Notes under the pieces: model-generated
What the model was told of the DNA's origin: nothing
What the model saw: the letters and a program-made list of their open reading frames with translations, nothing else
Database searches by the model: none
Position numbers and translations under genes: made by a program
Source: a virus
Lineage: Duplodnaviria > Heunggongvirae > Uroviricota > Caudoviricetes
Direction: 5' to 3' (one strand)
IMG/VR virus record: IMGVR_UViG_3300000176_000003
Span: 1 to 64,000 of that record
Length of the DNA: 64,000 nt
In this document: positions 9,652 through 25,702 of the stretch, one piece after another
Layout of the letters: every line of letters starts with the position of its first letter
How positions within the stretch are numbered: position 1 is the first letter of the stretch

Positions 9652-9664
9652 GGTAGTTTGGTAT

Positions 9665-11550: not shown

Positions 11551-11699
11551 AAGATCAATATGATCCTAATTCATGGGAAAACAGGTTCTTAATAGCTTGT
11601 ACTATTTGGGGTATGGGCACTTTACCTATGGCCATTGTTTGGGTTATCATGTATATTATCTTTTGGATCGTACAACATGTTAGAATTGGAATTATATAA
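11547..11699 (+). CDS. small hydrophobic membrane peptide (50 aa)
   Basis: ATGA-coupled. TM helix LPMAIVWVIMYIIFWIV. Confidence 0.35.
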   Translation: MKDQYDPNSWENRFLIACTIWGMGTLPMAIVWVIMYIIFWIVQHVRIGII

Positions 11700-12118: not shown

Positions 12119-12384
12119 TGAATAAGATTTTAGTACTAGCTATGGTTCTAACACTTACAGCCTGTCATAAGGTAGAACCACCAAAACAATATGATACCCT
12201 AGATAAGGTAAAAGATCGAATTGAAAACGGCGAAGCTGCAGTTGTGAGGGTGTGTCTTGAAGAAACCTATATCGTTAAGCTAGACGATAAGTATTATGTT
12301 CAGCATATTCATAGCGAACATAATATAGTAGGTGTACTAGAAGACGGTGTGCCTGTAGATAGCGTTTGTCAGGAAAAGAAGTAA
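12118..12384 (+). CDS. small lipoprotein
   Basis: Lipobox MVLTLTAC after the signal peptide. Confidence 0.5.
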   Translation: MNKILVLAMVLTLTACHKVEPPKQYDTLDKVKDRIENGEAAVVRVCLEETYIVKLDDKYYVQHIHSEHNIVGVLEDGVPVDSVCQEKK

Positions 12385-13181: not shown

Positions 13182-13443
13182 GGATTTATCTGCTCGTCTT
13201 AGAGTACAAGCAGAGAACGTAGAAGAGGACGGGTGGTTCAATGCTGCTCGTCTAATGCGGGGTGCTGCTGATGAACTTGAAGAACTTAAAGCCAGAAATG
13301 CCGAGTTAACAAAACATCTTCTAATTACTACAGAAGAGTCTTGGCCTTATATTCATCAATGGTGTTCTATTGACCGAGTAAAAAAGAATTGGCTTGATGC
13401 CAGAGAATTTTTGCGTGGCAATGATCCAAAGGTTAACTATTAA
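13135..13443 (+). CDS. hypothetical coiled-coil protein
   Basis: 102-aa ORF. The likely start is the internal Met in MSYKDL. Confidence 0.35.
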   Translation: MTRIHIIIGTLFMSYKDLSARLRVQAENVEEDGWFNAARLMRGAADELEELKARNAELTKHLLITTEESWPYIHQWCSIDRVKKNWLDAREFLRGNDPKVNY

Positions 13444-13445
13444 TC

Positions 13446-14192
13446 ATGAATAATGCAGTATTCTATCACTACTTTATTCCTGATGGGTCTATTGTTATGT
13501 GGTCATATTGGCTAGATGAACAGGCTCGTCTTATGATAGAGAGTGGACTTAAGGATAATGCCAAGGTCTATATGTGTATTACTATGCCAACTCATTATGG
13601 TAGTATGCACAATATGGAATTTCATGCAGACAGGAGTTCTAATAAATTCAACTTTGCTCAAAAAGTAGTAGAGTATATCAATAACAGATATCCTTGGATT
13701 ATCATTCTTAGTGTGCGGTCTACTCAAGAATTTAATCTATTTGAGGGACCAACCCTAGAAAAAATGTGGGAATATTCAAAAGTTCACAATGGTTCTGTTC
13801 TTTACATTCACAGCAAAGGTTCTCATAGTATTAATCTTGGCGGTCTTGCTGTAAAAAATTGGTTCGAAGTCCTCAATCACTTTCTAATCACTGAATGGAG
13901 AGAATGTCTAAAAGACCTAGAAAAGTTTGACCTTGTTGGTGTTCAGGATGCTAACCCGGTCAAAATTAAATACTTAAATGATATGAAAACTAACAATTTA
14001 GTCTCTGGTAATTTTTACTGGACAACCACCGAATACTTGGTTAATCTACCAAAACCTAAATTGTTAGAAAGTCGATATGATTTTGAACGATGGGTGTTGA
14101 CAAACGATCCTGTGGTGGGTTATAGAGTCGATACTAAAACAAACCACTACCGAGACTATTGTTTCGTGGAAAATCTTTTGGAGATAAAATGA
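13446..14192 (+). CDS. hypothetical protein
   Basis: 248 aa with no confident motif. Confidence 0.45.
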   Translation: MNNAVFYHYFIPDGSIVMWSYWLDEQARLMIESGLKDNAKVYMCITMPTHYGSMHNMEFHADRSSNKFNFAQKVVEYINNRYPWIIILSVRSTQEFNLFEGPTLEKMWEYSKVHNGSVLYIHSKGSHSINLGGLAVKNWFEVLNHFLITEWRECLKDLEKFDLVGVQDANPVKIKYLNDMKTNNLVSGNFYWTTTEYLVNLPKPKLLESRYDFERWVLTNDPVVGYRVDTKTNHYRDYCFVENLLEIK

Positions 14193-14767
14193 TTACCGTT
14201 CCATTTAAACGAGTTGCCGACCGTCTGATTCTTGATACCGACGTTATGAGTATCATTCGTAAGCGTGATGTCTATCTGGCTGGGGGTGCTCTTCGGGGTA
14301 TCTTCGGTAAGGACGAAACCATTATGGATTATGATGTTTTCTTTCCTAATGGATTGGTTTCTCATGAAGTTGGTCTTGACCTTGAAGACATTGGATTTGA
14401 AGTCATTTTCAAGTGTCCTGAAGGCAAGCTTACTTCCTATAAGCGCGGTGATCTTAAGGTTCAGCTTATCACCGAAAATTTCTATCCTTCTCCCGAAAAT
14501 CTGATCGACACCTTTGATATTAATGCCTGCCGCATTGCATTTTGGGCTGATATGATCTACACTGACCGAAACGCTATTCGAGATATGCGTAGGAAGCGAA
14601 TTACCCTGCATAAGGTGGATTTTCCTATGGCTACCTTTAAGCGTATCGTAAAATACACAAAGAAGAATTATGTGCTTGACAATCGAGCCGTACAATTCTA
14701 TGTTAGCGATATTGTTGATAAGACCCTAAAGGGTATTCCGGTGGATGGGAGATTTTACATTGACTGA
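14189..14767 (+). CDS. minimal nucleotidyltransferase (pol-beta superfamily, CCA-adding/poly(A)-polymerase head-like)
   Basis: DVYLAGGALRGIFGKD..DYDVFF is GG[AS]xR plus DxD, typical of the tRNA-NT/PAP head domain. Strong RBS GGAGATAAAATG at 14181-14191. Confidence 0.55.
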   Translation: MITVPFKRVADRLILDTDVMSIIRKRDVYLAGGALRGIFGKDETIMDYDVFFPNGLVSHEVGLDLEDIGFEVIFKCPEGKLTSYKRGDLKVQLITENFYPSPENLIDTFDINACRIAFWADMIYTDRNAIRDMRRKRITLHKVDFPMATFKRIVKYTKKNYVLDNRAVQFYVSDIVDKTLKGIPVDGRFYID

Positions 14768-14942
14768 CATTGGTCCTGGTGATCTAGTGGAATGTATTGA
14801 TGCTGATGGATATGTCCCTTATATCGCGGCTATCGGGGGTGGCGATTATATCGTAATTGATATTGACAACGAAACCGGTAAGGTGGTAGGGTGGGTTCCT
14901 CTCACGGAAGATGAACTCCGTGAAGCTGCAAAGGAAATGTAA
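14745..14942 (+). CDS. hypothetical protein
   Basis: 65 aa, acidic. Confidence 0.35.
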   Translation: MGDFTLTDIGPGDLVECIDADGYVPYIAAIGGGDYIVIDIDNETGKVVGWVPLTEDELREAAKEM

Positions 14943-15133
14943 TGAAGGTATCTGAACTGATTGAAGCTCTATCTAAGCTTCCTCCTGATATGGACGTTGT
15001 GGTGATTGATGATCTAACTGATGGGACGTATAATAAGATCGATGATATCATATACCATACTGTAGAAGAATTAGCTAATTACATGCATCTTTCTGCCGTA
15101 TATCCCAATGGCGTCGTTTACTTGGATTCATAA
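14942..15133 (+). CDS. hypothetical protein
   Basis: 63 aa, ATGA-coupled. Confidence 0.35.
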   Translation: MKVSELIEALSKLPPDMDVVVIDDLTDGTYNKIDDIIYHTVEELANYMHLSAVYPNGVVYLDS

Positions 15134-15389
15134 TATGGAACATTATATTCTCGAACTAACTAAAGAAGAAGTTGCTACTCTATATGTCGTACTGCGTAAT
15201 ATTTCTGGTAGTCCCACAGAGTCTCCTAGAAAGTATGTTGATGATATCTATGATGCAGTATGTACTTTGATGGATATGTCAAAAGATGATGGGCGTGGAA
15301 TCGATTGCTCAGACATCTGTGATGGTGATATACATTTTAAGAAATTTTATGATGGAAATTTTCATGATGCCGTAAAGGCTGTTAAATAA
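15108..15389 (+). CDS. hypothetical protein
   Basis: 93-aa ORF. Confidence 0.35.
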   Translation: MASFTWIHNMEHYILELTKEEVATLYVVLRNISGSPTESPRKYVDDIYDAVCTLMDMSKDDGRGIDCSDICDGDIHFKKFYDGNFHDAVKAVK

Positions 15390-15535
15390 TTGTTATTTGT
15401 GGTAAGGAAAGTTCTGTCGTGATGCTCTGGCCAGAGTCTCGATGGAAAACGGATTGATCTACCGTTAAAAGGAGGATGGGCAAGAGCCGGGCAAGAGCCG
15501 GCTCCAGATACCCCACCTGCCACAAGCTTTTTTTG

Positions 15536-15563
15536 TTGACACCATTTTTTGATCGTATATGAT
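15536..15563 (+). promoter_or_regulatory. sigma70-like promoter TTGACA-N16-TATGAT
   Basis: ctttttttgTTGACAcc...TATGAT has the same architecture as the 6266 promoter. It follows GC-rich dyads and direct repeats (gcaagagccgg x2). Confidence 0.5.
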
Positions 15564-15776
15564 GATTTTACGCATTATGGAGAACGAAATGACCACCAAT
15601 TACGTCCTAACCACGGCTGAAGGCCTTCGCCAATTCTATGCCGAGTTTGCCAGCCTTTTGGCCGACATCGACTACCTTGGTCTGACCGAGTACGAGATCG
15701 AGGTCGAAACCGCAGATTGACATTAATTCGAGGCCTGATAAAATGGTCTTACAAAATCGGAAACAAGGAAACGAAC

Positions 15777-15962
15777 ATGGCTTTTATCGAAAACCCTATG
15801 AATGTCTATGGCAATGCTTATGTCTCTGGCCATGCTAATGTCTCTGACAATGCTAATGTCTTTGGCGATGCTGTAGTCTCTGGCAATGCTGTAGTCTTTG
15901 CTCGCGGTACAGTCTTTGATGCTCCCCAACTATTCTCTTTTGATGATTCAGGAGTAATGTGA
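15777..15962 (+). CDS. short hexapeptide-repeat protein, paralog 2 of 4
   Basis: MAFIENPMNVYGNAYVSGHANVSDNANVFGDAVVSGNAVV. The N-terminus MA[FY]IEN is shared with paralogs 3 and 4. RBS AAGGAAACGAAC. The ORF-track start at 15717 is probably too early. Confidence 0.55.
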   Translation: MAFIENPMNVYGNAYVSGHANVSDNANVFGDAVVSGNAVVFARGTVFDAPQLFSFDDSGVM

Positions 15963-16180
15963 TGTCTACAAACATTAACGATCATACTTCATACTCATAT
16001 GTTGTATATGTTAGTGACTATAATAATGGTGATTGTACTCTAAATTCAGTCATGTTTCATGAACATCAAGCTAAGGCTTATTGTGAATATATGAATACTA
16101 AAGCTGAAAAAAATATCAAATACTCATATGAACGCGCCATCAATCGTGTATGGCCTATTGAAGGATTTTATGGTGAATAA
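15959..16180 (+). CDS. small protein of the QAKAYCEYM paralog family
   Basis: 73 aa with ...YVVYVSDYNNGDC...FHEHQAKAYCEYM. Confidence 0.4.
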   Translation: MMSTNINDHTSYSYVVYVSDYNNGDCTLNSVMFHEHQAKAYCEYMNTKAEKNIKYSYERAINRVWPIEGFYGE

Positions 16181-16394
16181 AGAAACTGGACTAATTATTA
16201 AGGCCGTATGTTATATTACGATCCTTATCACTATTGCTTATTTTATGTTTCGTGTGGCTATTCCCTTTACTCTGGGTATGCCGTCTGATCTAGTGGTCCT
16301 CGCTATTCCTCTGCTTGTCGGTGGAACTATCGTTGGTCTGTTCTACCTCGGCTCTATCTTTTTCAACGACTTTACTTCTAAGAAGGATCAATAA
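16170..16394 (+). CDS. small two-TM membrane protein (possible NfeD-like partner of the SPFH protein)
   Basis: Two hydrophobic helices. Immediately upstream of, and 3 nt from, the SPFH gene. The frame is open from 16128. Confidence 0.4.
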   Translation: MVNKETGLIIKAVCYITILITIAYFMFRVAIPFTLGMPSDLVVLAIPLLVGGTIVGLFYLGSIFFNDFTSKKDQ

Positions 16395-16397
16395 TAC

Positions 16398-17228
16398 ATG
16401 CAACTTCGTAATGTAATTCTGTCTGTCTCTGCTGCTATGCTGCTTACTGCTTGTGGTCCTAATGTACAAGTAGGTAATGTTGGCTTTCTAGTTAAGACTG
16501 TTGGTGAAGGTGCTGGTGTTCAACCACAACCGCTTGCTGTTGGGTATCACTTTACTGGTCCTAATGAGTATATCATCGAATACCCTGCTATCACTCGTAC
16601 TTATCAGTGGACTAAGCCTGGGGATGGTGATAACAAGAACGCAAATGAAGAGTTTGCTTTCAATGACTCTACTGGTCTGCCTCTGACTGCTGATGTATCT
16701 GTTACTATGCACGTCGATCCTTCCAAGGTTGCAGAAATCTATACCAAGTATAAGCTTGACTTTGATGCTCTGCGTGATGGTCCTGTGCGTGCATATGTTC
16801 GTACTTCTATTGCTCTGGAAGCTTCCAAGCTGACTTCAGATCAACTTTATACTGCTGCTCGTCAACAAGTCATTACTAATGCTCTGAAGGACGTTCAACA
16901 ACACTTTGCTGGTTCTGGTATTGAAATCTCTGATCTACAGTGGATCGGGTCTATTCGTTTCCCTGCTGCTGTAACTCAAGCAATTGAGAACAAGACCAAG
17001 GCTGACCAGGAAGCACAAGTTGCTGAGCGCCAAGTACAAGTTGAAAAGAATCGTGCTGATGCTGCTGTTGCTAAGGCTCGTGGTGAAGCTGATGCTACTC
17101 GTATCAAGGGTGAAGCACTGCACGCTAACCCCCAAGTGCTGCAACAAGAGTGGATTTCCAAGTGGAATGGCGTTCTTCCAACCACTGTGACTGGTAGCAA
17201 TACTATGATGATGGTAAAGCCCGACTGA
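16398..17228 (+). CDS. SPFH/band-7 (prohibitin-like) lipoprotein
   Basis: Lipobox LLTACG. The C-terminal region AQVAERQVQVEKNRADAAVAKARGEADATRIKGEA resembles an HflK/C-type SPFH domain followed by a coiled coil. Confidence 0.6.
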   Translation: MQLRNVILSVSAAMLLTACGPNVQVGNVGFLVKTVGEGAGVQPQPLAVGYHFTGPNEYIIEYPAITRTYQWTKPGDGDNKNANEEFAFNDSTGLPLTADVSVTMHVDPSKVAEIYTKYKLDFDALRDGPVRAYVRTSIALEASKLTSDQLYTAARQQVITNALKDVQQHFAGSGIEISDLQWIGSIRFPAAVTQAIENKTKADQEAQVAERQVQVEKNRADAAVAKARGEADATRIKGEALHANPQVLQQEWISKWNGVLPTTVTGSNTMMMVKPD

Positions 17229-17315
17229 TATATAGTAAATAGTACATTGAAACAGCGTATTAGTAACCGTAAACCTATTAAACCCACAAAATCTAAGAAG
17301 ATCGGAAGGTAAAAA

Positions 17316-17429
17316 ATGGAATTTGATGATTATGACTATGATGTTGATGCTGATTATGACGACTATGATGATTATGACTATGACATGCAAGAGGATTACC
17401 CGGAAGACTTTGGGGATTTCGACTACTAA
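17316..17429 (+). CDS. hyperacidic Asp/Tyr-rich peptide (37 aa, not in ORF track)
   Basis: MEFDDYDYDVDADYDDYDDYDYDMQEDYPEDFGDFDY. RBS GGAAGGTAAAAAATG. A terminator follows directly. Confidence 0.5.
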   Translation: MEFDDYDYDVDADYDDYDDYDYDMQEDYPEDFGDFDY

Positions 17430-17441
17430 CCTTTAACCAAA

Positions 17442-17479
17442 GGGGATATGGGAAAAATTCCATATCCCCTCATTTTTTT
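17442..17479 (+). terminator. rho-independent terminator
   Basis: ggggatatgg-gaaaaatt-ccatatcccc followed by an 8-T run, immediately followed by promoter tttttttgTTGACG. Confidence 0.75.
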
Positions 17480-17552
17480 GTTGACGGTCGATTTAGCCTC
17501 TGTTAGCTTAGGGTCATAGGCGAAACGGTTTGCCTCCAAACAAGGGACTAAG

Positions 17553-17738
17553 ATGAAACTTCAGATGTGTTGTTCAGAATGTGGATCAAAAGATGTTTTG
17601 GTCGATGCCTGGGCAAGTTGGGATGAAGTAAACCAAGAATGGGAACTGTCTTCTACTTTTGACCAAGCTTTTTGTGAAGACTATAACAGTGAAACCTCTA
17701 TTGATGAAATCGAGATTGAAGATGAAGCAAATGTCTAA
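17553..17738 (+). CDS. small Cys-containing protein
   Basis: 61 aa with CCSECGS near the N-terminus and an acidic C-terminus. Confidence 0.4.
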   Translation: MKLQMCCSECGSKDVLVDAWASWDEVNQEWELSSTFDQAFCEDYNSETSIDEIEIEDEANV

Positions 17739-17925
17739 TCGTGATTACGGCGTCTATGATGACGATGGTGAATTTTATGCGGCTCTTTTCCTTGACGATA
17801 AGGAAGTTGATGGTATGAACTTCTATAAGCGCAAGGAAGCTAAGGAATTTGGTAAGAAATGGGTCAAGGGTGGATGGAAGTCTATCTATCCTCACACTCC
17901 TGAAATGTGGGACAATGCAGAATGA
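17659..17925 (+). CDS. hypothetical protein
   Basis: The start is probably the downstream ATG (MSNRDYGV). Confidence 0.35.
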   Translation: MTKLFVKTITVKPLLMKSRLKMKQMSNRDYGVYDDDGEFYAALFLDDKEVDGMNFYKRKEAKEFGKKWVKGGWKSIYPHTPEMWDNAE

Positions 17926-18173
17926 ATGAAAATGAAACGCTGTTCTCATTTAATGTGAACAAGAAAAAGACTAAGATTGTTGCTCTAACTGCTAGTGATG
18001 CAATGTATCAGGCTGTTAATCATTTCGATCTAGTCGAAGACTCTGGTGAATGGCTGATGGTTTCTCCCGGTAATTGGGCTGTTCCTACGGATGGTCCTGA
18101 ATATACCTGGGTTACTGGTGATAATATTCTTAAGACTACAAAGAGTCCTTGGGAAGCCTCCTGGCGTCATTAA
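17907..18173 (+). CDS. hypothetical protein
   Basis: 88-aa ORF. Confidence 0.35.
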   Translation: MGQCRMNENETLFSFNVNKKKTKIVALTASDAMYQAVNHFDLVEDSGEWLMVSPGNWAVPTDGPEYTWVTGDNILKTTKSPWEASWRH

Positions 18174-18186
18174 TAGGAAAGTAGTT

Positions 18187-18345
18187 ATGAAAATCTATTG
18201 GGTATTGGGATATGACCAATATTATCCCTTGGCTGATAACTTTATGGATTCATTTGAAACCTATGAGGAAGCGGCTGAATATGCTGCTAAACGTCCGGGA
18301 AATCGTGACCATTACAACGTGATAAACATTTCGGATAGGCTCTAA
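18187..18345 (+). CDS. small protein of the EEAAEYAAK paralog family
   Basis: MKIYWVLGYDQYY...FETYEEAAEYAAKRPG. RBS AGGAAAGTAG. Confidence 0.4.
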   Translation: MKIYWVLGYDQYYPLADNFMDSFETYEEAAEYAAKRPGNRDHYNVINISDRL

Positions 18346-18512
18346 AAAACTTGTTGACGGGGCGATAGGATTGTGAGAGATTGTGGTTATCAAGAAAGGG
18401 AACGACATGAAATCGAGAAATCCTATCGCCCGCTTTGCACACAAATGTAATGTGGCAAAGGCTTTCCCTGCCAAAAAGGGAAAGGGTTCCGTTTTTAAAC
18501 GCGATAAAAAGG

Positions 18513-18541
18513 TTGACACCGATGTTTAAAGAATTTAAGAT
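18513..18541 (+). promoter_or_regulatory. sigma70-like promoter TTGACA-N17-TAAGAT
   Basis: aaaaaggTTGACAcc ... TAAGAT. There is another TTGACG at 18354. Confidence 0.45.
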
Positions 18542-18743
18542 GCGCGAAGGTCTGGAAATTTTTAATAGGTCTCATGGCGGCGGTGGGTCGTCATGGTCTA
18601 TGAAGGGATTTAATGACTTGACTGAAGCTGAAGCATATGCTAAGTATATCCAGGAATCTCTTTGGGGATATGGTAGTACGGCTAATGTTCACACTAAGCC
18701 GGAACTTTATGTTTCGTGCCATTGCTATAATTCTTGTGATTAG
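18540..18743 (+). CDS. hypothetical protein
   Basis: The frame is open from 18435. The true start is uncertain because the promoter overlaps the first ATGs. Confidence 0.3.
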   Translation: MREGLEIFNRSHGGGGSSWSMKGFNDLTEAEAYAKYIQESLWGYGSTANVHTKPELYVSCHCYNSCD

Positions 18744-18751
18744 GGGATAGT

Positions 18752-19075
18752 ATGTCGGTTAAGGCTAGGATTGAACTTGAGCAACGTATTGTCAAGATGA
18801 CTATTGATGCCAGTCTAAAGGCTGGTTATGCTCTAGGCGTCTATGATGGTGAAGAATTTGTTGTTAAAAATTCCAAAGATGCTGATGAAATCTTTGGTGC
18901 TATGTTTAGCACTGATGAGGATACACTTTGCTTTTACAATGAATCGAAAAAACGTATCGGCTGGGTTTACTTTATCTATGGCAATGATGGTTATGATGTC
19001 ATCAGTGATTACACCACTAATCTTGAAGATGTCTTGAAGCCGATTAACGAATATTGCGATAGCTATATGGATTGA
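18752..19075 (+). CDS. hypothetical protein
   Basis: 107-aa ORF. Confidence 0.4.
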   Translation: MSVKARIELEQRIVKMTIDASLKAGYALGVYDGEEFVVKNSKDADEIFGAMFSTDEDTLCFYNESKKRIGWVYFIYGNDGYDVISDYTTNLEDVLKPINEYCDSYMD

Positions 19076-19110
19076 TCTAACTCTCTGATTTTCCCAACGA
19101 AATTTTTTTG

Positions 19111-19139
19111 TTGACACCCTGATTGGCCTATGAGATTAT
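19111..19139 (+). promoter_or_regulatory. sigma70-like promoter TTGACA-N17-GATTAT
   Basis: aatttttttgTTGACAccc...GATTAT. Confidence 0.45.
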
Positions 19140-19167
19140 GGGTCATCGAAACAAACGGAGATACCAA

Positions 19168-19479
19168 ATGGCCTACGCTTCTATTAATGTCGAAGTTGAT
19201 CTGGATCAAGTGATTGAAAATTTCGATGTGTCTGACATCCTGTGTGGACTTCTGTCTAACGATATCATTGAATATATCGTGGAAGACGCGCCTAACCGAC
19301 TGATTGCTGCTTTGCGTGATGCTGGCGAATTGCCCGAAAATGCTGGAATTTTCTTTGAAATTGAGGAAAAGACTGCTATGCTTCAGGCTCTTGACATTTA
19401 TGTCGCTGTCCAAAAGGCTACTGGTACGGGAATTATGACCCAAAGCGAAATTTCTAGCTTGCGTGAAAAGCTGATCTAG
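19168..19479 (+). CDS. hypothetical acidic protein
   Basis: RBS GGAGATACCAAATG. The frame is open from 19123. Confidence 0.4.
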   Translation: MAYASINVEVDLDQVIENFDVSDILCGLLSNDIIEYIVEDAPNRLIAALRDAGELPENAGIFFEIEEKTAMLQALDIYVAVQKATGTGIMTQSEISSLREKLI

Positions 19480-19494
19480 GGTATGGTGACTTTA

Positions 19495-19528
19495 TGGGAA
19501 GGCAATCGCGCCTTCCCATATTTTTCTG
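19495..19528 (+). terminator. rho-independent terminator
   Basis: atgggaaggc-aatcgc-gccttcccat followed by ATTTTTCT, then promoter TTGACA at 19540. Confidence 0.7.
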
Positions 19529-19716
19529 AAAAAAGATTGTTGACAGATGAAAACTTATCGGTTAGTCTGGGAAATAGATATTGAGGCCGATAGCCCGACT
19601 GAAGCGGCTATCATTGCCAGAAATATTCAGCTTGACAGTGTGTCAACTGCTACTGTATTTGATGTATATGATGGTAATATCTTCGTCGAGTCTGTTGATT
19701 TAATCGGATAAGGTCA

Positions 19717-20154
19717 ATGATGAATAACGATCAAAAGCAAGCGATTGCTCAATATATCAATGCACCTAAGCATATCTATGCTTGCGCTGATGCAATTCGA
19801 TATGATCTGATGCATGGTCCCTGCTGGTCACTGATTCCGCAAGGTATCATTGAAGACTTTACTATGGATCATGTTGCAACCTTTTATGATGATCTGGTGG
19901 ATGCTATCATTGAAGGTGATGTAGTAGAAGAAACCTATACCGGAATTGTTGCGGATACTCTGCGACAATATATTGACGAATTGCCTTGCGAACTGTATAT
20001 TGAATGTGATACCGATTGCGTGATGGACAGTGAGCCGCAATGGGATTGGGATGAAGAATTGGGCGAAGATATCGAGCCTATGCCTTACTACATTGTGACG
20101 CATAAGTCTATTGTTGAAGCGGTGTTTGGTCCTACTATTGCAAAGGAATTCTAA
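19717..20154 (+). CDS. hypothetical acidic protein
   Basis: 145-aa ORF. Confidence 0.4.
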   Translation: MMNNDQKQAIAQYINAPKHIYACADAIRYDLMHGPCWSLIPQGIIEDFTMDHVATFYDDLVDAIIEGDVVEETYTGIVADTLRQYIDELPCELYIECDTDCVMDSEPQWDWDEELGEDIEPMPYYIVTHKSIVEAVFGPTIAKEF

Positions 20155-20156
20155 TA

Positions 20157-20423
20157 ATGATTGCCTTTACTAAGATTAGTAATATCAAGATTAGCTATAG
20201 TGCTGATGATTGGCAATTGTATAATATTGATGGTCGTGATCGTGCGGCTGATGAATTGAATGCTGGTATGGCTGAGCTTATGTCTAATTGGCCTAGTAAG
20301 GCTGATGTAAATTGGAAGGAAATTGAAAATCTTCTGTTCAGCTATGCTGATTATGGCGCGGCGTATAGTGAAGGTTATCAAATGGTTGACTATATCTTTA
20401 GCAAGGTTTATGGAGAATACTAA
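20157..20423 (+). CDS. hypothetical protein
   Basis: 88-aa ORF. Confidence 0.35.
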   Translation: MIAFTKISNIKISYSADDWQLYNIDGRDRAADELNAGMAELMSNWPSKADVNWKEIENLLFSYADYGAAYSEGYQMVDYIFSKVYGEY

Positions 20424-20809
20424 TGCGCGCTCAAGAAATCTTTGATACTGTAGCGACTCATCTGTTTACTCAAGGTAGACGAGCAATTACTATCGATGAG
20501 CAATGTGCGTATAAGACCAATGACGGTCTTAAGTGTGCTGTCGGTTGTCTTATTCCTGATGATATGTATTCTTCTAAGATGGAAAATACGGATGTTGTGA
20601 CTCTTTTAGCATTTCAATCTGATTATGGGTATACTATTCCTAAGTATTTTGCTCGAAATCAAGACATGCTTTCTCAGCTTCAGACTATTCATGATGATGA
20701 GTATTCTTGGTTATCCACTGAAGATATGAAGGATGCACTTAAGAAAGTTGCTCGAAATCATCATCTTAAGATGTCTGTACTGAATAACCTTTCCTTCGAG
20801 GACCGATAA
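20423..20809 (+). CDS. hypothetical protein
   Basis: 128 aa, ATG overlapping the upstream stop. Confidence 0.4.
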   Translation: MRAQEIFDTVATHLFTQGRRAITIDEQCAYKTNDGLKCAVGCLIPDDMYSSKMENTDVVTLLAFQSDYGYTIPKYFARNQDMLSQLQTIHDDEYSWLSTEDMKDALKKVARNHHLKMSVLNNLSFEDR

Positions 20810-20827
20810 TACTCCACAAATACTTTA

Positions 20828-20869
20828 GCCCATATGTGAGAGATTTTTTTCACATATGGGCATTTTTTC
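20828..20869 (+). terminator. rho-independent terminator
   Basis: gcccatatgtga-gagattttttt-tcacatatgggc followed by ATTTTTT, then promoter TTGACA at 20872. Confidence 0.7.
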
Positions 20870-20929
20870 GTTTGACATAGTGTTTTAGCTAGTGCATAGT
20901 TAGTCCATCGAAACACGGGAAACACGGAT

Positions 20930-21568
20930 ATGATCCGCCTCTCTAAAGCTTCTAAAATGCCGGGTAAGTCGTGGTCATTACAGGCGCGGGAAACATGTCC
21001 CGGCTCTATTGATCCGGCGACTAAGACGCTATTGCCGGTTTGTGCGGGCTGCTATGCCACGCAAGGGAACTATGTTTTTCCTAATGTCAAAGCGCCGCGC
21101 GAAGAAAACCGCAAGGATTGGAAACGCGAAGACTGGGTTTCTGATATGGTTGCTGCTATCGCCAAAGAAAAGTTTTTTCGTTGGTTTGATAGTGGCGACG
21201 TGTATCATCCTGGTTTGGCTGAAAAGATTTACTATGTGATGGAACAAACGCCGCACGTTAGGCATTGGCTCCCTACTAAGTCTTACAATATCCCCAAAAT
21301 TCGCTTTTGGCTGAATATGATGAAAGAATTGCCTAATGTGGCGGTTCGCTTTTCTTCGCCTACGGTAGATGGTATGTTTAGCGCGGAACATGGTTCCTGC
21401 GTAGTGCCAAGTTTTGATAGTGACACGCAAGCTAATGCCGTTTGCGATGCTTATGAACGGGACGGTAAATGCGGCGATTGTCGCGTTTGTTGGGATAAAA
21501 CGGTTGACGTTGTTGCGTATGTGGCGCATAGTAAGAAGCTGATTAAGCAATTGAAGGCTGCGGCATAA
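20930..21568 (+). CDS. Cys-rich hypothetical protein in a G+C-richer block
   Basis: 212 aa with CPGS...CAGCYATQGN and a C-terminal CGDCRVC (possible metal site). The surrounding DNA is visibly more GC-rich than its neighbours. Confidence 0.45.
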   Translation: MIRLSKASKMPGKSWSLQARETCPGSIDPATKTLLPVCAGCYATQGNYVFPNVKAPREENRKDWKREDWVSDMVAAIAKEKFFRWFDSGDVYHPGLAEKIYYVMEQTPHVRHWLPTKSYNIPKIRFWLNMMKELPNVAVRFSSPTVDGMFSAEHGSCVVPSFDSDTQANAVCDAYERDGKCGDCRVCWDKTVDVVAYVAHSKKLIKQLKAAA

Positions 21569-21569
21569 A

Positions 21570-21752
21570 ATGAAAAGCGTTAGCGAACGGTTTGAAGACT
21601 TTGTAAATAGCGGCGCGAAGGAACAATATCCTGATGATAGGGAAAGGCAATATGCCTATTCATATGGATATATGAATAGTATTATCGAAATACTGTCTGT
21701 GCGAGTCCCCGGAGTAGCTGAATACCTCGAAAACTATATTAAGGAAAATTGA
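21570..21752 (+). CDS. hypothetical protein
   Basis: 60 aa, coupled to the upstream gene. Confidence 0.35.
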   Translation: MKSVSERFEDFVNSGAKEQYPDDRERQYAYSYGYMNSIIEILSVRVPGVAEYLENYIKEN

Positions 21753-21757
21753 TAGCT

Positions 21758-22243
21758 ATGGCTTATATTGAAAATTCTAACAAAGTCTCTGGCAATGCTA
21801 ATGTCTATGGCGATGCTCTAGTCTATGGCGATGCTGTAGTCTCTGGCAATGCTAATGTCTTTGGCGATGCTAAGATCCATGGCGATGCTCATGTCTATGG
21901 CGATGCTCTAGTCTATGGCGATGCTGTAGTCTCTGGCAATGCTAATGTCTCTGGCAATGCTTTTGTCTCTGGTGAAGCGAATATTTCATCTAATGATGAT
22001 TGGTTTAGCCTGATCTATAGTGGTAAGACTTTGACTGGATATCGCTCTCGCAATGCTGATGGTTATGAACTGAATATTGATGGTCTCGCGGTCACTATTG
22101 GTGATGTGGCTGATGATCTGACGCCCAATCAATTGAATGCGATTGATAAGTGGTCTAAGCCTACAAAGTCTGAGATTGATATTAGGATTGAAGCCCTGAA
22201 GACTGAATTGGCTGCTTTGGAACAAGCTATTAAGGATCGTTAA
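21758..22243 (+). CDS. hexapeptide-repeat protein, paralog 3 of 4
   Basis: MAYIENSNKVSGNANVYGDALVYGDAVVSGNANVFGDAKIHGDAHVYGDA..., then the conserved C-terminal module SSNDDWFS...SRNADGYELNIDG. RBS AAGGAAAATTGATAGCTATG. Confidence 0.65.
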   Translation: MAYIENSNKVSGNANVYGDALVYGDAVVSGNANVFGDAKIHGDAHVYGDALVYGDAVVSGNANVSGNAFVSGEANISSNDDWFSLIYSGKTLTGYRSRNADGYELNIDGLAVTIGDVADDLTPNQLNAIDKWSKPTKSEIDIRIEALKTELAALEQAIKDR

Positions 22244-22437
22244 TACAATGCACCGAGTAGGAATTCCTGATGATCTACTGGAACAAGCTATTGCAATACT
22301 GTATAGACTTGAGGAAGATGCCGAAGAACTTGGTTATTATAGTAGATCAAACGAAGCGATTAGAATCGCTGATGAACTAAAAGTATATTTTAATGAAAAC
22401 AAACAATAATCTACTAAAATAACTAAGGAACGCACAA

Positions 22438-22761
22438 ATGGCTTATATTGAAAACGAGAATAAGGTCTATGGCAGTGCTTATGTCTCTGGCAATGCTAAG
22501 GTCTATGGCAATGCTAATGTCTATGGCAATGCTGTAGTCTCTGGCGATGCTAGTGTCTATGGTGAAGCGAATATTTCATCTAATGATGATTGGTTTTCTA
22601 TTACTATTCAGAATAAGATCATTACTGCCTATAAGTCTCGTAATGCTGATGGTTACGAAATCAATATCAATGGAATCAATAAAACCCTGGATGAAGTGAA
22701 ACAATACTTCGGTTCTATTCAATGTGAACTAATCGAATCCTGGAATAAACAATTGAACTAA
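22438..22761 (+). CDS. hexapeptide-repeat protein, paralog 4 of 4
   Basis: MAYIENENKVYGSAYVSGNAKVYGNANVYGNAVVSGDASVYGEANISSNDDWFS...SRNADGYEININGI. Confidence 0.65.
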   Translation: MAYIENENKVYGSAYVSGNAKVYGNANVYGNAVVSGDASVYGEANISSNDDWFSITIQNKIITAYKSRNADGYEININGINKTLDEVKQYFGSIQCELIESWNKQLN

Positions 22762-22954
22762 TAATGATATAATAAAGTAGTGTAAACATAAGACTCAATA
22801 CACACTGAATACACACTGAAATAAAAAACTGTACTACACACCCAATGTGTATAGTGAAAAGTGATGTATTTAGACTTAGAAAAGAATGCCCTTTATTATG
22901 GGTTTGGCTTCTGTATGAGGCATGTGATTGATTTCTATGGGGAAAAATAATTTA

Positions 22955-22983
22955 TTGACACGCAAACGCTGATAGGCCATTAT
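22955..22983 (+). promoter_or_regulatory. sigma70-like promoter TTGACA-N17-CATTAT
   Basis: aataatttaTTGACAcgc...CATTAT. Confidence 0.4.
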
Positions 22984-23017
22984 GGGGACATCGAAACGCG
23001 GCTAGGGAATAACGGAT

Positions 23018-23203
23018 ATGGAATTCGCCTCTGGTGCTGAAGCTGTGGCCTATTATTATTCCAAAGGTTTTTTCTATCGTGCGGAAGATATCTCTCGCTT
23101 AGATTATCGGATCATGTATAATCCCGATACGAATCAGGCGGTGGAAATCGAGCACAAAGGTTTTCTTTCTTGGGTTGCGGCTGAAATTCAAAATTTTTAT
23201 TAA
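23018..23203 (+). CDS. hypothetical protein
   Basis: 61-aa ORF downstream of the promoter. Confidence 0.35.
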   Translation: MEFASGAEAVAYYYSKGFFYRAEDISRLDYRIMYNPDTNQAVEIEHKGFLSWVAAEIQNFY

Positions 23204-23266
23204 AAAAAGGTTTGACAGACTAAATCGCCTCTGATACCTTAGATAAATCGAAGCAAGGAACACAAA

Positions 23267-23542
23267 ATGTCTTACAATGGTTGGACTAATCGCGAGACTT
23301 GGTTGGTCAATATCTGGTTTGGTGATGATGATTACCTTACGGATATGTCTGCGGCTGAAATTCAGAACGTCGTTGCTGAATACGTCGAAGAAAAGATCGG
23401 CGAAAGCGGCGGTTTCATCTATGATATGATCAATTTTGAATGTATTGATTGGGATGAGCTCGCCGACCATCACAAGTCTGATGATGAACTGGAAGATGAT
23501 GACGATACTATTCAAGACGAAGATGATGAAATCGAAGAATAA
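23267..23542 (+). CDS. hypothetical protein with strongly acidic C-terminal tail
   Basis: The N-terminus MSYNGWTNRETWLVNIWF is followed by a DDELEDDDDTIQDEDDEIEE tail. Confidence 0.45.
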   Translation: MSYNGWTNRETWLVNIWFGDDDYLTDMSAAEIQNVVAEYVEEKIGESGGFIYDMINFECIDWDELADHHKSDDELEDDDDTIQDEDDEIEE

Positions 23543-23747
23543 CTAAATAGAATTAGAATTAAAGCTTGGTCTAAGCCTTACCAACCTACGGGAATTTGGA
23601 GTAGCTTAGACCAAGCGGATATTCTAGACTAATCTAGTGCTCCCCGGCAGGTATATCCTAGGCCATGATAGGGCACTACAGGAACAATAGAACAAAAGAG
23701 AACTGCGGTCTTTGACAATTAAATAGAAATTCTTCTATCAGAAACAA

Positions 23748-23972
23748 ATGCGTTTCATGATATACTTTTTTTTGTTTGAAAGGTGTGGATCAATGCTTGG
23801 TTATATTGCGGGATATAATGGTAAAACTGTTGAAATAACTGCGAGTAGTTTATATGCGGCCAAAATTGCTGCGACCATGCTACTAAATGCGCCTAAGTCT
23901 AAGGTGCATATGGTATGGGTTGCTTTGGCTGAAAAGGATGGTGAGCCCGTTATACACATGGCGGTTGATTAA
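23748..23972 (+). CDS. hypothetical protein
   Basis: The likely start is ATG 23794 after GAAAGGTG. Confidence 0.35.
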   Translation: MRFMIYFFLFERCGSMLGYIAGYNGKTVEITASSLYAAKIAATMLLNAPKSKVHMVWVALAEKDGEPVIHMAVD

Positions 23973-24000
23973 AGGTGCGGCAATGAAGCAAAAAAGTCTC

Positions 24001-24029
24001 TTGACACGCGCTGAAAGACAAGCTATCTT
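24001..24029 (+). promoter_or_regulatory. sigma70-like promoter TTGACA-N17-TATCTT
   Basis: aaaaagtctcTTGACAcgcg...TATCTT. Confidence 0.4.
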
Positions 24030-24094
24030 ACGTGAGTACTTAGGCAAGCGCAACGTGCTCTCGCCTATTCCCAAAGCGGCTTAAGGATCACAAG

Positions 24095-24331
24095 ATGAAT
24101 CGCCCTCTCTATACTATCGCCTCGGATATCCGCAAGGCTTGGCCCAAGGTTAACTTTGCAGCTAAACCTTACCTTGACGCAATGTCTTCTCTGAATACTA
24201 TGCAAGATGACTATTATTGCGACTCTGCTAAGTCTGTTGTTCTCTATTTCCTTTCCAACGCTTCGACCTTTCGCGGCGAACAAGCAAAGTCGCTGAAGGA
24301 TGAACTAAAGGCAATGCTTAAGAGCGCCTAA
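24095..24331 (+). CDS. hypothetical protein
   Basis: 78-aa ORF followed by a perfect 12-bp-stem hairpin at 24343-24371. Confidence 0.4.
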   Translation: MNRPLYTIASDIRKAWPKVNFAAKPYLDAMSSLNTMQDDYYCDSAKSVVLYFLSNASTFRGEQAKSLKDELKAMLKSA

Positions 24332-24342
24332 TACTTGAACCG

Positions 24343-24371
24343 GAGGGGATTAGACTTGATCTAATCCCCTC
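24343..24371 (+). terminator. hairpin terminator-like element
   Basis: gaggggattaga-cttga-tctaatcccctc. The downstream U-tract is weak. Confidence 0.45.
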
Positions 24372-24756
24372 TATACTTTGGAGCAAATACAAATGGCCCG
24401 TTTGATTGTTGAATTTGCAGTATTGACGATTTTTTTGATCGTTCTTACTTGCCTATATATGACCTATACCTAACTAGACTGTATAGAGCAAAGCAGATTA
24501 AGGTTAAATTTTCGCGATTTCCCCATTGTTCCCTAACCCATTGAAATTGCAGAGAAAAATAATTTTTCGGAGCATGTATTGAAGGGTTGACACCAAGTAT
24601 TGTTATTGATAAGGTGGCTTCGCCACCGGGGGATTCGCCCCCGGCCGGCGGGGACGGACTCCCCGGCGATCTTTGACATTGTGAACCCCTAACCAAGGCG
24701 CGCGGCATTCCGTTGCGCGCCTAATCCTTCACATCACATCAAAAGGAACTAAACAA

Positions 24757-25017
24757 ATGTTCGCTTCTCTCAATATCGGTTACGGCGCTACCTTCGCCCT
24801 CTCGATCGCCGATGCCGCCAAGGTTATGGAAATACTCGGCAAGGCGAAGCGCATCGAGTCAACCTATGTCGGCGGCGAAGACTATCGCACGGTTACTTAT
24901 GAAATCGAGCCGGCTAATATTGAAATGCGCGTGTTGAACGGTGAAATCTACTCGAAAGAGCAAGTTGAACAATTCAAGGCGGAAGATAAGGCGCGAAAGG
25001 AACAAGAGCAAGCCTAG
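24757..25017 (+). CDS. hypothetical protein
   Basis: 86 aa with RBS AAAGGAACTAAACAAATG. A terminator follows. Confidence 0.45.
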   Translation: MFASLNIGYGATFALSIADAAKVMEILGKAKRIESTYVGGEDYRTVTYEIEPANIEMRVLNGEIYSKEQVEQFKAEDKARKEQEQA

Positions 25018-25030
25018 TCGAAAGCAATAC

Positions 25031-25063
25031 AGAGGCGGATTAAACCCCGCCTCTGTTCTTTTC
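25031..25063 (+). terminator. rho-independent terminator
   Basis: agaggcgg-attaaacc-ccgcctct followed by GTTCTTTTC. Confidence 0.6.
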
Positions 25064-25086
25064 AATACAACAAAAGGTCAAAGCAA

Positions 25087-25272
25087 ATGCAACAAACGAC
25101 GCTCGCCCAAAGCATTCGCCACGGTTTCTTTAGCGAACGCGAGACTTTAAAAGACGCTATGCAGTACGCCTACAGTATTGCGCAAGCGTCGAATTCGCCT
25201 ATTCATGTAATGACGGCAATACATGTCGTCATGAATACTCTAGCTAATGAAATGGAGAAGCAAACGGCCTAG
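25087..25272 (+). CDS. hypothetical protein
   Basis: 61-aa ORF. Confidence 0.35.
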   Translation: MQQTTLAQSIRHGFFSERETLKDAMQYAYSIAQASNSPIHVMTAIHVVMNTLANEMEKQTA

Positions 25273-25395
25273 TATCTGTCAAGTATAGAGCAAGTCTAGT
25301 TTGGCGATTAGACTTGCTCTATACTTCCGAAAAAAACAGTTCTATTTGGCTATATTGTATTGGGTTCCCATACGAGATGCTTCGAGCGGTTTAGT

Positions 25396-25650
25396 TTTTC
25401 CATTTTTCCTTTTTCTATGGGTCCCCCCCAGGAAAATATAGGATTTCAATTTTCCATTTTTCCTTTTTCTATGGGTCCCTTTCAGAAAAGTATAGGGTCC
25501 CCCCTTTTCGTATACGGGTCCCTTTCAGAAAAGTATAGGGTCCCCCCCCACCTTATATTGGGTCCCCTTACGGGTCCCTTTCAGAAAAGTATAGGGTCCC
25601 TTTGATCCGTTCTACGGGTCCCTTTGATCCGTTTCACGGGTCCCTCTCTC
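25396..25650. repeat. intergenic iteron-like array: about 10 copies of GGGTCCC embedded in three families of 30-bp direct repeats
   Basis: ttttccatttttcctttttctatgggtccc occurs twice, gggtccctttcagaaaagtatagggtcccc three times and gggtccctttgatccgtt..acgggtccc twice. These contrast with the AT-rich surroundings. Confidence 0.8.
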
Positions 25651-25660
25651 AGGGTTTTAC

Positions 25661-25668
25661 TATAAATA
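25661..25668 (+). promoter_or_regulatory. T4-type late promoter TATAAATA upstream of gp25
   Basis: ctaTATAAATAaata lies 35 nt upstream of ATG 25703 and marks the start of the late structural block. Confidence 0.6.
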
Positions 25669-25702
25669 AATACAGATTTCCTTTTCTCATCGGAGAACTT
25701 TA

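What the first reader, a model, noticed from the sequence alone, without database searches (positions are those of the whole stretch)
25396..25650. Dense GGGTCCC iteron array immediately upstream of the late baseplate operon
A roughly 250-bp intergenic segment contains about 10 copies of GGGTCCC, organised as 2+3+2 copies of three different 30-bp direct repeats that each begin and end with the motif. It sits directly before the TATAAATA late promoter of gp25 and just after a perfect 17-bp inverted repeat (25282-25324). The G/C-rich periodic motif is alien to the AT-rich genome. Candidate functions are an origin of replication (iterons), a binding array for a late-transcription or packaging factor, or a recombination hotspot. 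The ORF predicted across it (25360..25605) is almost certainly an artefact.
Basis: seen in the sequence. Interest (0 to 1): 0.7.

Follow-up and report, generated by a model that had tools for sequence, protein, structure and literature searches.

The report
Phased GGGTCCC repeat array before gp25
A non-coding stretch of an uncultured T4-like phage carries ten same-direction copies of GGGTCCC spaced two DNA turns apart, just before the baseplate late promoter; it looks like a docking array for an unknown DNA-binding protein, and related arrays occur in a few other freshwater phages.

Summary
Ten of the window's eleven GGGTCCC copies lie at 25419-25644, all on the + strand, and seven of nine spacings are 21-22 bp. 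The last copy starts 23 bp before the TATAAATA box of gp25. The ORF called across the array is spurious.

A relative with 90% identical gp6 (L100) has the same array with 12 copies. It differs by two whole 22-bp units and by replaced spacers, yet all 22 cores are perfect. Homologous arrays occur in other T4-like contigs (L074, L361, L374/377/378), beside a TATAAATA-like box in most but not in L361. One more occurs in an unrelated AT-rich phage contig family (L055). About a dozen relatives with 53-60% identical gp6 lack the array.

The array marks the right edge of a ~21-kb accessory-gene insertion between the hub/PAAR genes and gp25.

Best reading: a phased array of sites for an unidentified sequence-specific DNA-binding protein, acting as a boundary or regulator at the junction between accessory genes and the late operon.

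A replication origin is not excluded, but nothing specific supports it. No initiator gene or DnaA box lies nearby, and the GC skew has the opposite polarity. Structured RNA and intrinsic terminators are weakly supported. Function is unproven; interest is moderate.

The parts
25419..25644 (+). Array of ten perfect GGGTCCC cores, all in one orientation, mostly 21-22 bp apart. Extended site is roughly W-H-GGGTCCC-H-T-W.
   Evidence: conserved with 12 cores in L100
25396..25472 (+). Two copies of a pyrimidine-rich leader, TTTTCCATTTTTCCTTTTTCTAT (25396-25418 and 25450-25472), each running into a core. Together with the first core they form the 47-nt repeat pair.
   Evidence: family D2
25355..25374 (+). 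Degenerate outlying unit TTGTATTGGGTTCCCATACG. It has one extra T in the core and is 85% identical to unit 25553-25572.
   Evidence: family D4; identical in L100 and L102
25281..25326 (.). Perfect 18-bp inverted repeat with a 10-nt loop and no T-tract after it. It coincides with the change in identity to L100, from 86% on the left to 97% on the right. In the L100/L102 lineage the left arm carries three tandem 11-bp GCAAGTCTAG copies.
25661..25668 (+). T4-type late promoter box TATAAATA, starting 23 bp after the start of the last core and 35 nt before the gp25 start codon.
   Evidence: same layout in L074
25703..26113 (+). gp25-like baseplate wedge gene (TTG start, GGAG ribosome-binding site upstream), the first gene of the late operon downstream of the array.
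   Evidence: PF04965
26113..27870 (+). gp6-like baseplate wedge gene, used to find relatives.
25087..25272 (+). 61-aa ORF, the last gene of the accessory block. It is linked to the array in both lineages, but its three-helix model has no DNA-binding match, and a 56% homologue (L103) has no array beside it.
25029..25056 (+). GC-rich terminator hairpin followed by a T-run, within a cassette (25018-25066). The cassette flanks a gene indel in L100 (PeSL-like).
25360..25605 (+). Mechanical 81-aa ORF across the array; not a gene.
4800..25700 (+). A ~21-kb block of small accessory ORFs inserted between the hub genes (gp5-like 1643-2578, peptidase 2517-4550, PAAR-like 4550-4798) and gp25. The array is its right edge.

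Best explanation
The segment is a non-coding, cis-acting DNA element: a phased, one-directional array of sites for a sequence-specific double-stranded-DNA-binding protein that has not been identified and may be phage- or host-encoded. Each site is a 7-bp pseudo-palindromic core, GGGTCCC, with weakly specified asymmetric flanks. Sites repeat every 21-22 bp, about two helical turns, so bound proteins would line up on roughly one face of the helix and could bind cooperatively. I infer that the resulting complex sits at the seam between a 21-kb block of accessory genes and the gp25-gp6 baseplate operon and controls what crosses that seam. It could be a polar roadblock or insulator against read-through RNA polymerase, and possibly against sliding clamps, arriving from the accessory block. 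It could also be an operator that times the late promoter, because its last site covers about -37 to -31 of that promoter. Shown here: the array is non-coding, the core is invariant while spacers and copy number change, phase and orientation are kept, the array abuts a late-promoter box, and homologous arrays exist in other phages. Inferred only: that a protein binds, and what binding does.
For: Ten of the eleven cores in 64 kb are clustered, against 1.5 expected. All share one orientation, and seven of nine spacings are 21-22 bp. The 90% relative L100 has 12 cores. It differs by exactly two 22-bp units, one replaced spacer and two swapped units, yet 22 of 22 cores are perfect, and spacers fall into at least seven unrelated types. 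Across six lineages, 37 distinct sites share only the core plus weak flanks, with 2.0 bits at each core position and at most 1.4 bits elsewhere. L074, a T4-like contig with a gp59-type helicase loader, has three consecutive homologous units whose spacers match at 11/14 and 8/15 positions. It also has the same proximal layout, GGGTCCC-N-AGGGT-N-CTATAAATA, with 24 versus 23 bp from core to box. L374/L377/L378 have TATAAACT at the equivalent place. The cores read in the same direction as the downstream gene in all five T4-like lineages. RNA folding of the arrays is only marginally better than shuffles, with z = -2.65, -1.48 and -1.45. No + strand intrinsic terminator lies within the array. The position is a junction: relatives L001, L005 and L007 go straight from peptidase/PAAR genes to gp25, whereas the window has 21 kb of small ORFs in between. 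From knowledge of T4 late transcription (PMC2988020): the promoter needs only TATAAATA plus a gp45 clamp that reaches it by tracking along DNA, so a bound array immediately upstream is well placed to interfere.
Against: No binding protein was identified. The adjacent 61-aa ORF gives a three-helix model with no significant structural match, and its 56% homologue has no array beside it. No DNA-binding domain was found in the ORFs scanned against Pfam or PHROGs. The other five TATAAATA boxes in the window have no core nearby, so this is not a general late-promoter element. L361 has an array with no exact TATAAATA, and L055 has one in a phage with no sign of being T4-like. In those lineages spacings are less regular (52, 77, 24, 29 in L374). 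The array is missing from most relatives, so it is dispensable for the clade. The high identity of this intergenic region to L100 belongs to a 2.2-kb high-identity block that includes gp25 and gp6, so it may reflect recent recombination rather than constraint. L074, L055 and the other arrays were found by searching for perfect cores, which biases the core counts outside the window and L100.
Confidence: 0.35

Rival explanations
1. Iteron-type replication origin or priming site. An initiator, or the phage primase, recognises the repeated cores, the A+T-rich stretch at 25327-25418 melts, and replication starts within the baseplate cluster, as T4 oriE does.
For: A 22-bp direct-repeat period with 7-12 copies is the classic iteron format. 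An A+T-rich stretch and an inverted repeat lie next to the array. T4 oriE lies in the same part of the gene map, in gene 5 just before the variable genes that precede gene 6, and is associated with evenly spaced 12-nt repeats (PMC3016281). In L078, three AGGGGTCCCA repeats 22 bp apart lie inside a gene with a weak winged-helix match, within a replication/recombination module. From memory and untested: 5'-GGGTC-3' is the preferred T7 primase site, and it is present in every core on one strand only.
Against: No initiator-like gene lies near the array or in the ORFs scanned. No DnaA box lies within 1.4 kb, and the window count equals chance. The cumulative GC skew peaks at 24-25 kb, the polarity expected of a terminus, although in phages skew mostly tracks gene content. 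The T4 oriE repeats are coding repeats of the gp5 beta-helix with a 24-nt period, and their role in replication was never established (PMC3016281). The array is absent from most relatives. Known T4 origins work through promoter-derived R-loops, not initiators (PMC3016281).
Confidence: 0.15
2. RNA-level element. In read-through transcripts from the accessory block, neighbouring GGGUCCC copies pair with each other (3 bp, a U-U mismatch, 3 bp). The resulting string of hairpins, each followed by C/U-rich sequence, terminates, stalls, processes or stabilises the upstream mRNA.
For: The core is self-complementary apart from its centre, and predicted folds pair adjacent cores. Cores are nearly always followed by (C)TTT or ATAT. 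In L055 two pairs have 4-5-nt loops followed by T-runs and lie between convergent genes. Orientation relative to transcription is conserved across lineages. In L374, GGGACTCC and its near-complement GAGTCCC occur on the same strand.
Against: Fold z-scores are weak (-2.65, -1.48, -1.45) and no single structure dominates, with MFE ensemble frequencies of 0.002 or less. Most loops would be 15 nt, and no + strand terminator inside the array passed the scan. Rfam finds nothing at gathering scores. Gain or loss of whole units is tolerated. The late transcript starts downstream of the array, so the element would not be part of the gp25 mRNA.
Confidence: 0.15
3. Functionless or selfish minisatellite or cassette. 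This would be slippage-prone repeat DNA that piggybacks on promoter/terminator cassettes shuffled between hyperplastic regions of T4-like phages.
For: Copy number differs between close strains by whole units. The neighbouring hairpin also shows an 11-bp tandem expansion. Distribution is patchy: 5 of 80 loci in the L074 clade and none of about 44 gp6 relatives. The array always lies in variable, accessory-gene regions. A PeSL-like terminator cassette flanks a gene indel 300 bp away (PMC2839356, PMC4122927).
Against: Slippage and conversion would homogenise spacers as well as cores, yet spacers are of at least seven unrelated types while 22 of 22 cores are perfect in the window and L100, which were not selected for core perfection. 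Homologous units in L074 have diverged in their spacers but not in their cores. Orientation and position relative to a promoter box are kept.
Confidence: 0.2
4. A real small protein is encoded across the array (81-aa ORF, 25360-25605).
For: An ORF exists mechanically, and gene callers mark short ORFs here in fragmentary contigs.
Against: There is no Pfam or PHROG match. The 22-bp indels shift the frame, and all three frames contain stops in L100. The peptide merely echoes the DNA repeats.
Confidence: 0.01

Closest known systems
Iteron arrays of plasmid and phage origins (R6K gamma: seven 22-bp iterons; pPS10: four 22-bp iterons; lambda ori inside gene O)
   Same: Head-to-tail direct repeats with a 22-bp period, 7-12 copies, information concentrated in roughly 12 bp of each unit, and an A+T-rich stretch alongside.
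   Different: No cognate initiator gene and no DnaA boxes were found. The array sits in a lytic T4-like phage, a group whose known origins use R-loops. It abuts a late promoter, and replication was not tested.
T4 oriE '12-nt iterons' (PMC3016281)
   Same: A similar map position, in the baseplate cluster next to the variable genes between gene 5 and gene 6. Function is likewise unexplained.
   Different: The T4 repeats lie inside gene 5 and correspond to its beta-helix coding repeats, with a 24-nt period at NC_000866 79426-79557. They share no sequence with this array. The present array is non-coding and G+C-rich.
PeSL promoter/terminator cassettes of T4-type hyperplastic regions (PMC2839356, PMC4122927)
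   Same: A short non-coding motif at the borders of accessory genes in T4-like phages, patchily distributed and linked to promoters and terminators. A true PeSL-like cassette lies 350 bp upstream.
   Different: PeSLs are single stem-loops with an early sigma-70 promoter, scattered many times per genome. This is one tandem array of a 7-bp core, at a late promoter, with no sigma-70-like match inside it.
Operator or centromere arrays bound cooperatively by small repressors, such as R1 parC (2 x 5 eleven-bp repeats around a promoter) and the omega heptad arrays of pSM19035 (recalled from memory)
   Same: Many short direct repeats in helical phase overlapping or abutting a promoter, with variable copy number.
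   Different: No partner gene (ParR, omega or another ribbon-helix-helix protein) was found, and the neighbouring 61-aa protein is predicted all-helical. There is no partition system, and the core and spacing differ.
Arrays of oriented terminator-protein sites between transcription units, such as the ten TTF-I 'Sal boxes' of mouse rDNA with one promoter-proximal copy (recalled from memory; analogy only)
   Same: About ten same-orientation factor sites between the end of one transcription unit and the next promoter, with the last site just upstream of that promoter.
   Different: A eukaryotic RNA polymerase I system with no homology to this element; no such protein is known in phages.

Membership tests
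Iteron-type replication origin | Tandem direct repeats of 17-22 bp in helical phase | tested here: met
   Ten cores, with seven of nine spacings 21-22 bp, all in one orientation; 12 cores in L100.
Iteron-type replication origin | Cognate initiator (Rep, O or pi-type winged-helix protein) encoded next to or around the iterons | tested here: not met
   The neighbours are 61-aa and 86-aa ORFs and gp25. No Rep-like or DNA-binding domain was found in the ORFs of 111-25272 scanned. The rest of the ~156-kb genome was not available.
Iteron-type replication origin | Host initiator sites (DnaA boxes) and an A+T-rich unwinding element nearby | tested here: inconclusive
   No DnaA box with 1 or fewer mismatches lies between 23958 and 27078, and the window count equals chance. 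An A+T-rich stretch does exist at 25327-25418.
Iteron-type replication origin | Replication actually initiates there | not testable with these tools
   Needs marker-frequency or nascent-strand mapping. The GC-skew maximum at 24-25 kb is not of origin polarity.
T4 oriE iterons | Evenly spaced 12-nt repeats inside gene 5, with antisense repEA/repEB genes | tested here: not met
   The T4 repeats are coding, with a 24-nt period in gene 5. The array here is intergenic, has a different sequence, and has no antisense small genes with homologues.
PeSL cassette | Stem-loop terminator fused to an early sigma-70 promoter, repeated at many ORF borders | tested here: not met
   No sigma-70-like site and no + strand terminator lies in 25396-25650. 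There is only one array locus in 64 kb.
CRISPR array | 28-37-nt repeats separated by unique spacers of about 30-40 nt | tested here: not met
   The 35-nt units are 43-56 nt apart, so 'spacers' would be 8-21 nt. The CRISPR-DR58 match scores 17.9 bits against a gathering score of 38, with E = 4.5.
Structured non-coding RNA | Stable, conserved secondary structure with covariation | tested here: inconclusive
   Fold z-scores are -2.65 (window array), -1.48 (L374) and -1.45 (L361), with no dominant fold. There is no Rfam match. Too few alignable sequences exist for a covariation test.
Protein-coding gene | Reading frame conserved in relatives, or a family match | tested here: not met
T4-type late promoter (downstream partner of the array) | TATAAATA box about 30-45 nt upstream of the start codon, on the coding strand | tested here: met
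   The box at 25661-25668 lies 35 nt before the TTG at 25703. All six boxes in the window are on the + strand, fewer than chance expects (6 against 12), and three (4925, 25661, 60887) lie within ~40 nt upstream of an ORF start. Activity was not tested.

The most novel reading that the evidence does not exclude
GGGTCCC arrays are a previously unrecognised, horizontally mobile cis-element of freshwater phages, including T4-like phages of probable alphaproteobacterial hosts. They would recruit a dedicated protein to build a polar barrier or loading platform that gates T4-type late transcription, which normally has no sequence-specific upstream control. Alternatively, they would define the first initiator-dependent, sequence-defined origin in a T4-like phage.
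Probability: 0.1. Interest if true: 0.8.

Novelty: new variant of a known kind. Interest (0 to 1): 0.5.

Why it matters
T4-type late promoters are thought to need only TATAAATA plus a sliding clamp, with no sequence-specific upstream control. T4-like origins are thought to work without initiator-bound iterons. A conserved, phased protein-site array fused to a late promoter would challenge one of these two views. It would also give a handle for finding a new phage or host DNA-binding protein.

There is a practical consequence too. At least seven contigs from six or more samples end inside the array, so it fragments metagenomic assemblies of this phage. Copy number differs between strains, which makes the array a possible strain marker. 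If it proves to be inert repeat DNA, it still documents how hyperplastic regions of T4-like phages are bordered and reshuffled.

Tried and rejected
- **Nucleotide similarity.** The locus and the array were searched against cultured phage genomes and plasmids. There was no match apart from one chance 37-bp plasmid hit.
- **Exact 29-mer in JGI metagenome contigs.** None found. The phage is present there, but its contigs stop before that unit.
- **gp25 search in metagenome contigs.** Only three distant loci turned up.
- **Six-frame translation of the array as a protein query**, to catch spurious ORFs over homologous arrays. Nothing scored, and the search was wasted.
- **Most three-core hits in viral contigs** are coding repeats with periods that are multiples of 3, or giant-virus terminal repeats.
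- **The 61-aa neighbour as the binding protein.** The three-helix model (pLDDT 73.5) has no structural match with E below 2, and its homologue has no array beside it.
- **DUF1289 zinc-ribbon gene.** It lies downstream of every array in the L074 clade, but it has no homologue in the window and its function is unknown.
- **Restriction-site avoidance.** GGWCC and GGNCC occur at the expected frequency outside the array.
- **Transposon end.** No inverted copy (GGGACCC) exists in the window.
- **CRISPR mini-array, tRNA or tmRNA remnant.** Rejected.
- **Literature search for the motif.** Only primer sequences came up. The original oriE paper (PMC94188) is not held.

Full report
**What the window is**

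All long ORFs lie on the + strand. The gp6-like protein (26113-27870) is at best 43% identical to that of Caulobacter phage Cr30. It matches more than 2,400 T4-like phage records. No nucleotide match exists in cultured phages. The window is therefore part of an uncultured T4-like myovirus.

The same sequence recurs in contigs from Logan, ENA and JGI samples, and the longest contig is 156 kb. Relatives carry alphaproteobacterial-type permuted tmRNA genes, which suggests an alphaproteobacterial host.

**The observation**

GGGTCCC occurs 11 times in 64 kb against 1.5 expected. Ten copies lie at 25419-25644. Both strands were searched and every hit is on the + strand, so all copies share one orientation. 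No other GGGNCCC exists in the window.

Spacings are 54, 22, 21, 22, 22, 12, 22, 22, 22. The repeat families are 2 x 47 nt, 3 x 35 nt (plus two weaker copies) and 2 x 22 nt.

A perfect 18-bp inverted repeat lies at 25281-25326. TATAAATA starts at 25661, 23 bp after the start of the last core and 35 nt before the TTG start of the gp25 homologue.

**Coding or not**

The 81-aa ORF across the array has no Pfam or PHROG match. In the close relative L100 the array differs by two 22-bp indels, and all three frames contain stops. The segment is non-coding.

**Genomic setting**

ORFs at 1643-2578 (gp5 OB fold plus lysozyme), 2517-4550 (DUF2345 plus a weak peptidase M15 match) and 4550-4798 (a PAAR-motif match just below Pfam's threshold) are hub and spike genes. 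In relatives L001, L005 and L007 such peptidase and small PAAR-like ORFs are followed directly by gp25. That reading of the relatives comes from the sequence and was not confirmed by a family search.

In the window about 21 kb of small accessory ORFs lie in between. They include an endonuclease, beta-solenoid proteins, a phosphoesterase, an SPFH protein and several DUFs. The array is therefore the right-hand edge of a hyperplastic insertion, immediately before the promoter that restarts the late operon.

In eight other relatives the same junction holds a minus-strand tmRNA gene. This spot appears to be a recurrent landing place for accessory elements.

**Conservation**

- Forty-four viral contigs with gp6 of at most 60% identity contain no array.
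- The protein database holds one close relative, at 90% gp6 identity. Its contig L100 carries the array in the same place with 12 cores.
- L100 differs from the window by two whole 22-bp units, one replaced spacer and two swapped units. All 22 cores are perfect.
- Spacers fall into at least seven unrelated types, so the uniform cores cannot be explained by homogenisation of whole units.
- Identity to L100 is 97% just left of the array, 92.5% plus 44 gap positions within it, 92-98% through gp25 and most of gp6, and 76-90% beyond. It is 86% to the left of the hairpin. The high intergenic identity may therefore reflect a recently exchanged 2.2-kb block. The argument for constraint rests on core invariance, not on overall identity.
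- Seven contigs from at least six samples end inside the array, and one chimeric contig has its junction at the array's start.

**Homologous arrays elsewhere**

A three-core pattern search of IMG/VR returned mostly coding repeats. A few non-coding arrays stood out.

- **L074.** This is a T4-like contig with a gp59-type helicase loader and a tmRNA. It has four cores. Three consecutive units align with window units including their spacers (TTTTCGTATTC against TTTTCGTATAC). The same GGGTCCC-N-AGGGT-N-CTATAAATA layout is present, at 24 versus 23 bp. That composite pattern is unique to L074 in IMG/VR.
- **L074 clade.** Among 80 loci, L361 and L374/L377/L378 have five-core arrays at the syntenic place. 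These are mixed with GGGACTCC and GAGTCCC, which share the pentamer GTCCC/GGGAC. The L374 group has TATAAACT where L074 has TATAAATA. The other 75 loci have unrelated genes there.
- **Downstream gene.** Every array in this clade lies upstream of a DUF1289 zinc-ribbon gene. That gene also occurs without an array and is absent from the window.
- **L055/L080/L067.** This is one AT-rich contig family with no sign of being T4-like. It has a five-core array between convergent genes. The array includes ATATTGGGTCCCATACGGGTCCCTTT, close to window units 5-7.
- **Consensus.** Over 37 distinct sites from six lineages, only the core is fixed. The flanks are W-H before it and H-T-W after it.

**What it most likely is**

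Several features fit a dsDNA site array for a sequence-specific protein better than any alternative. These are an invariant short core, free spacers, a period of two helical turns, a single orientation and tolerance of whole-unit gain or loss. Its place suggests a boundary or operator function. It lies after the last accessory gene and a hairpin, and its last site covers about -37 to -31 of a late promoter.

T4 late promoters are otherwise activated only by a clamp that tracks along DNA (PMC2988020). I put about 0.55 on 'protein-site array' and 0.35 on the full statement including the boundary or regulatory role. Binding and its effect are inferred, not shown.

**Rival readings**

- **Origin.** The format is iteron-like, and T4 oriE lies in the equivalent map region (PMC3016281). 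Against this, the T4 repeats are coding repeats of gene 5. No initiator gene or DnaA box lies nearby. The skew polarity is wrong, and most relatives lack the element.
- **RNA hairpins.** Cores can pair with each other. However, z-scores are weak, no fold dominates, no + strand terminator lies inside the array, and Rfam is silent.
- **Inert or selfish repeat.** This fits the patchy distribution and copy-number change. It does not explain perfect cores amid diverged spacers.
- **Coding gene.** Refuted.

**Novelty and verdict**

I found no described element with this motif in Rfam, in the cultured-phage or plasmid collections, or in the literature searched. The kind of element, a phased direct-repeat array at a promoter or origin, is known. 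I therefore file it as a new variant of a known kind with unproven function and moderate interest. It is real, conserved in its core, recurrent in a phage clade, and directly testable.

Noticed in passing
L003 2642-2954 (-); L074 5568-5927 (+); same position in L002, L004, L006, L009, L010, L043, L044: Phage-encoded permuted alphaproteobacterial-type tmRNA genes (Rfam RF01849/RF04321; tag ANDNESISYALAA in L074). In the gp6 relatives the tmRNA sits directly upstream of the gp25 late promoter, at the junction where the window has the GGGTCCC array. This hints at an alphaproteobacterial host.
   Followed up: partly
window 24340-24756: A 420-bp non-coding stretch. It holds a terminator-like hairpin (24341-24372), a TTGACA-N17-TAAGGT promoter-like site (24588), and then a 56% G+C multi-hairpin leader before the 86-aa ORF. 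There is no significant Rfam match. It could be an unknown leader or small RNA.
   Followed up: partly
window 25018-25066; L100 171-208 and 829-866: A terminator cassette (TCGAAAGCAATACAGAGGCGG...CCGCCTCTGT) occurs once in the window. In L100 it occurs twice, flanking an extra G+C-rich 196-aa gene. This looks like a PeSL-type cassette-mediated gene indel.
   Followed up: partly
L102 3975-4040 (and the N-gap in L100 1101-1200): In the sister lineage the left arm of the 18-bp hairpin carries three tandem 11-bp copies of GCAAGTCTAG instead of one. This is a second slippage-prone repeat next to the array, or possibly a second protein site.
   Followed up: no
window 6576-7364, ~15800-15900, 21749-22243, 22438-22761: Four ORFs contain 18-nt (6-aa) tandem repeats, up to 16 copies. 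They match the YdcK beta-solenoid repeat and, more weakly, bactofilin. They form a paralogous family within the accessory block.
   Followed up: partly
window 51981-56204: A 1407-aa ORF with more than 20 copies of a 147-nt (49-aa) repeat, presumably a fibre or adhesin-like structural protein. Long fibre genes at 40725-51477 also carry internal repeats.
   Followed up: no
L095 1-254 and 834-1033: A JGI contig joins G+C-rich bacterial DNA (MscS-like) to phage 24836-25414 and then to unrelated DNA. The second junction falls exactly at the start of the array. It is probably an assembly chimera caused by the repeats.
   Followed up: partly
L374 3409-3629; L377; L378; L361 2388-2538: Arrays in the L074 clade mix GGGTCCC with GGGACTCC and GAGTCCC, which share the pentamer GTCCC/GGGAC. 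They always precede a DUF1289 zinc-ribbon gene with a basic tail. That gene is a candidate partner protein in that clade, but it is absent from the window.
   Followed up: partly
L078 11109-11159: Three AGGGGTCCCA repeats 22 bp apart lie inside a 254-aa ORF with a weak winged-helix match. The ORF follows AAA_24 and DUF669 genes. This may be an origin inside an initiator gene, as in lambda gene O.
   Followed up: partly
L084 1-210: Sixteen GGGTCCC copies with an 11-12-bp period lie at the end of a giant-virus-like contig that encodes a TFIIS-like protein. This is probably a terminal repeat unrelated to the phage arrays.
   Followed up: no
window 4925-4932 and 4961-5731: A TATAAATA box precedes a DNA/RNA non-specific endonuclease gene (PF01223, E = 9e-50). 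It is the first gene of the accessory block, so an apparently late-expressed nuclease sits inside the baseplate cluster.
   Followed up: no
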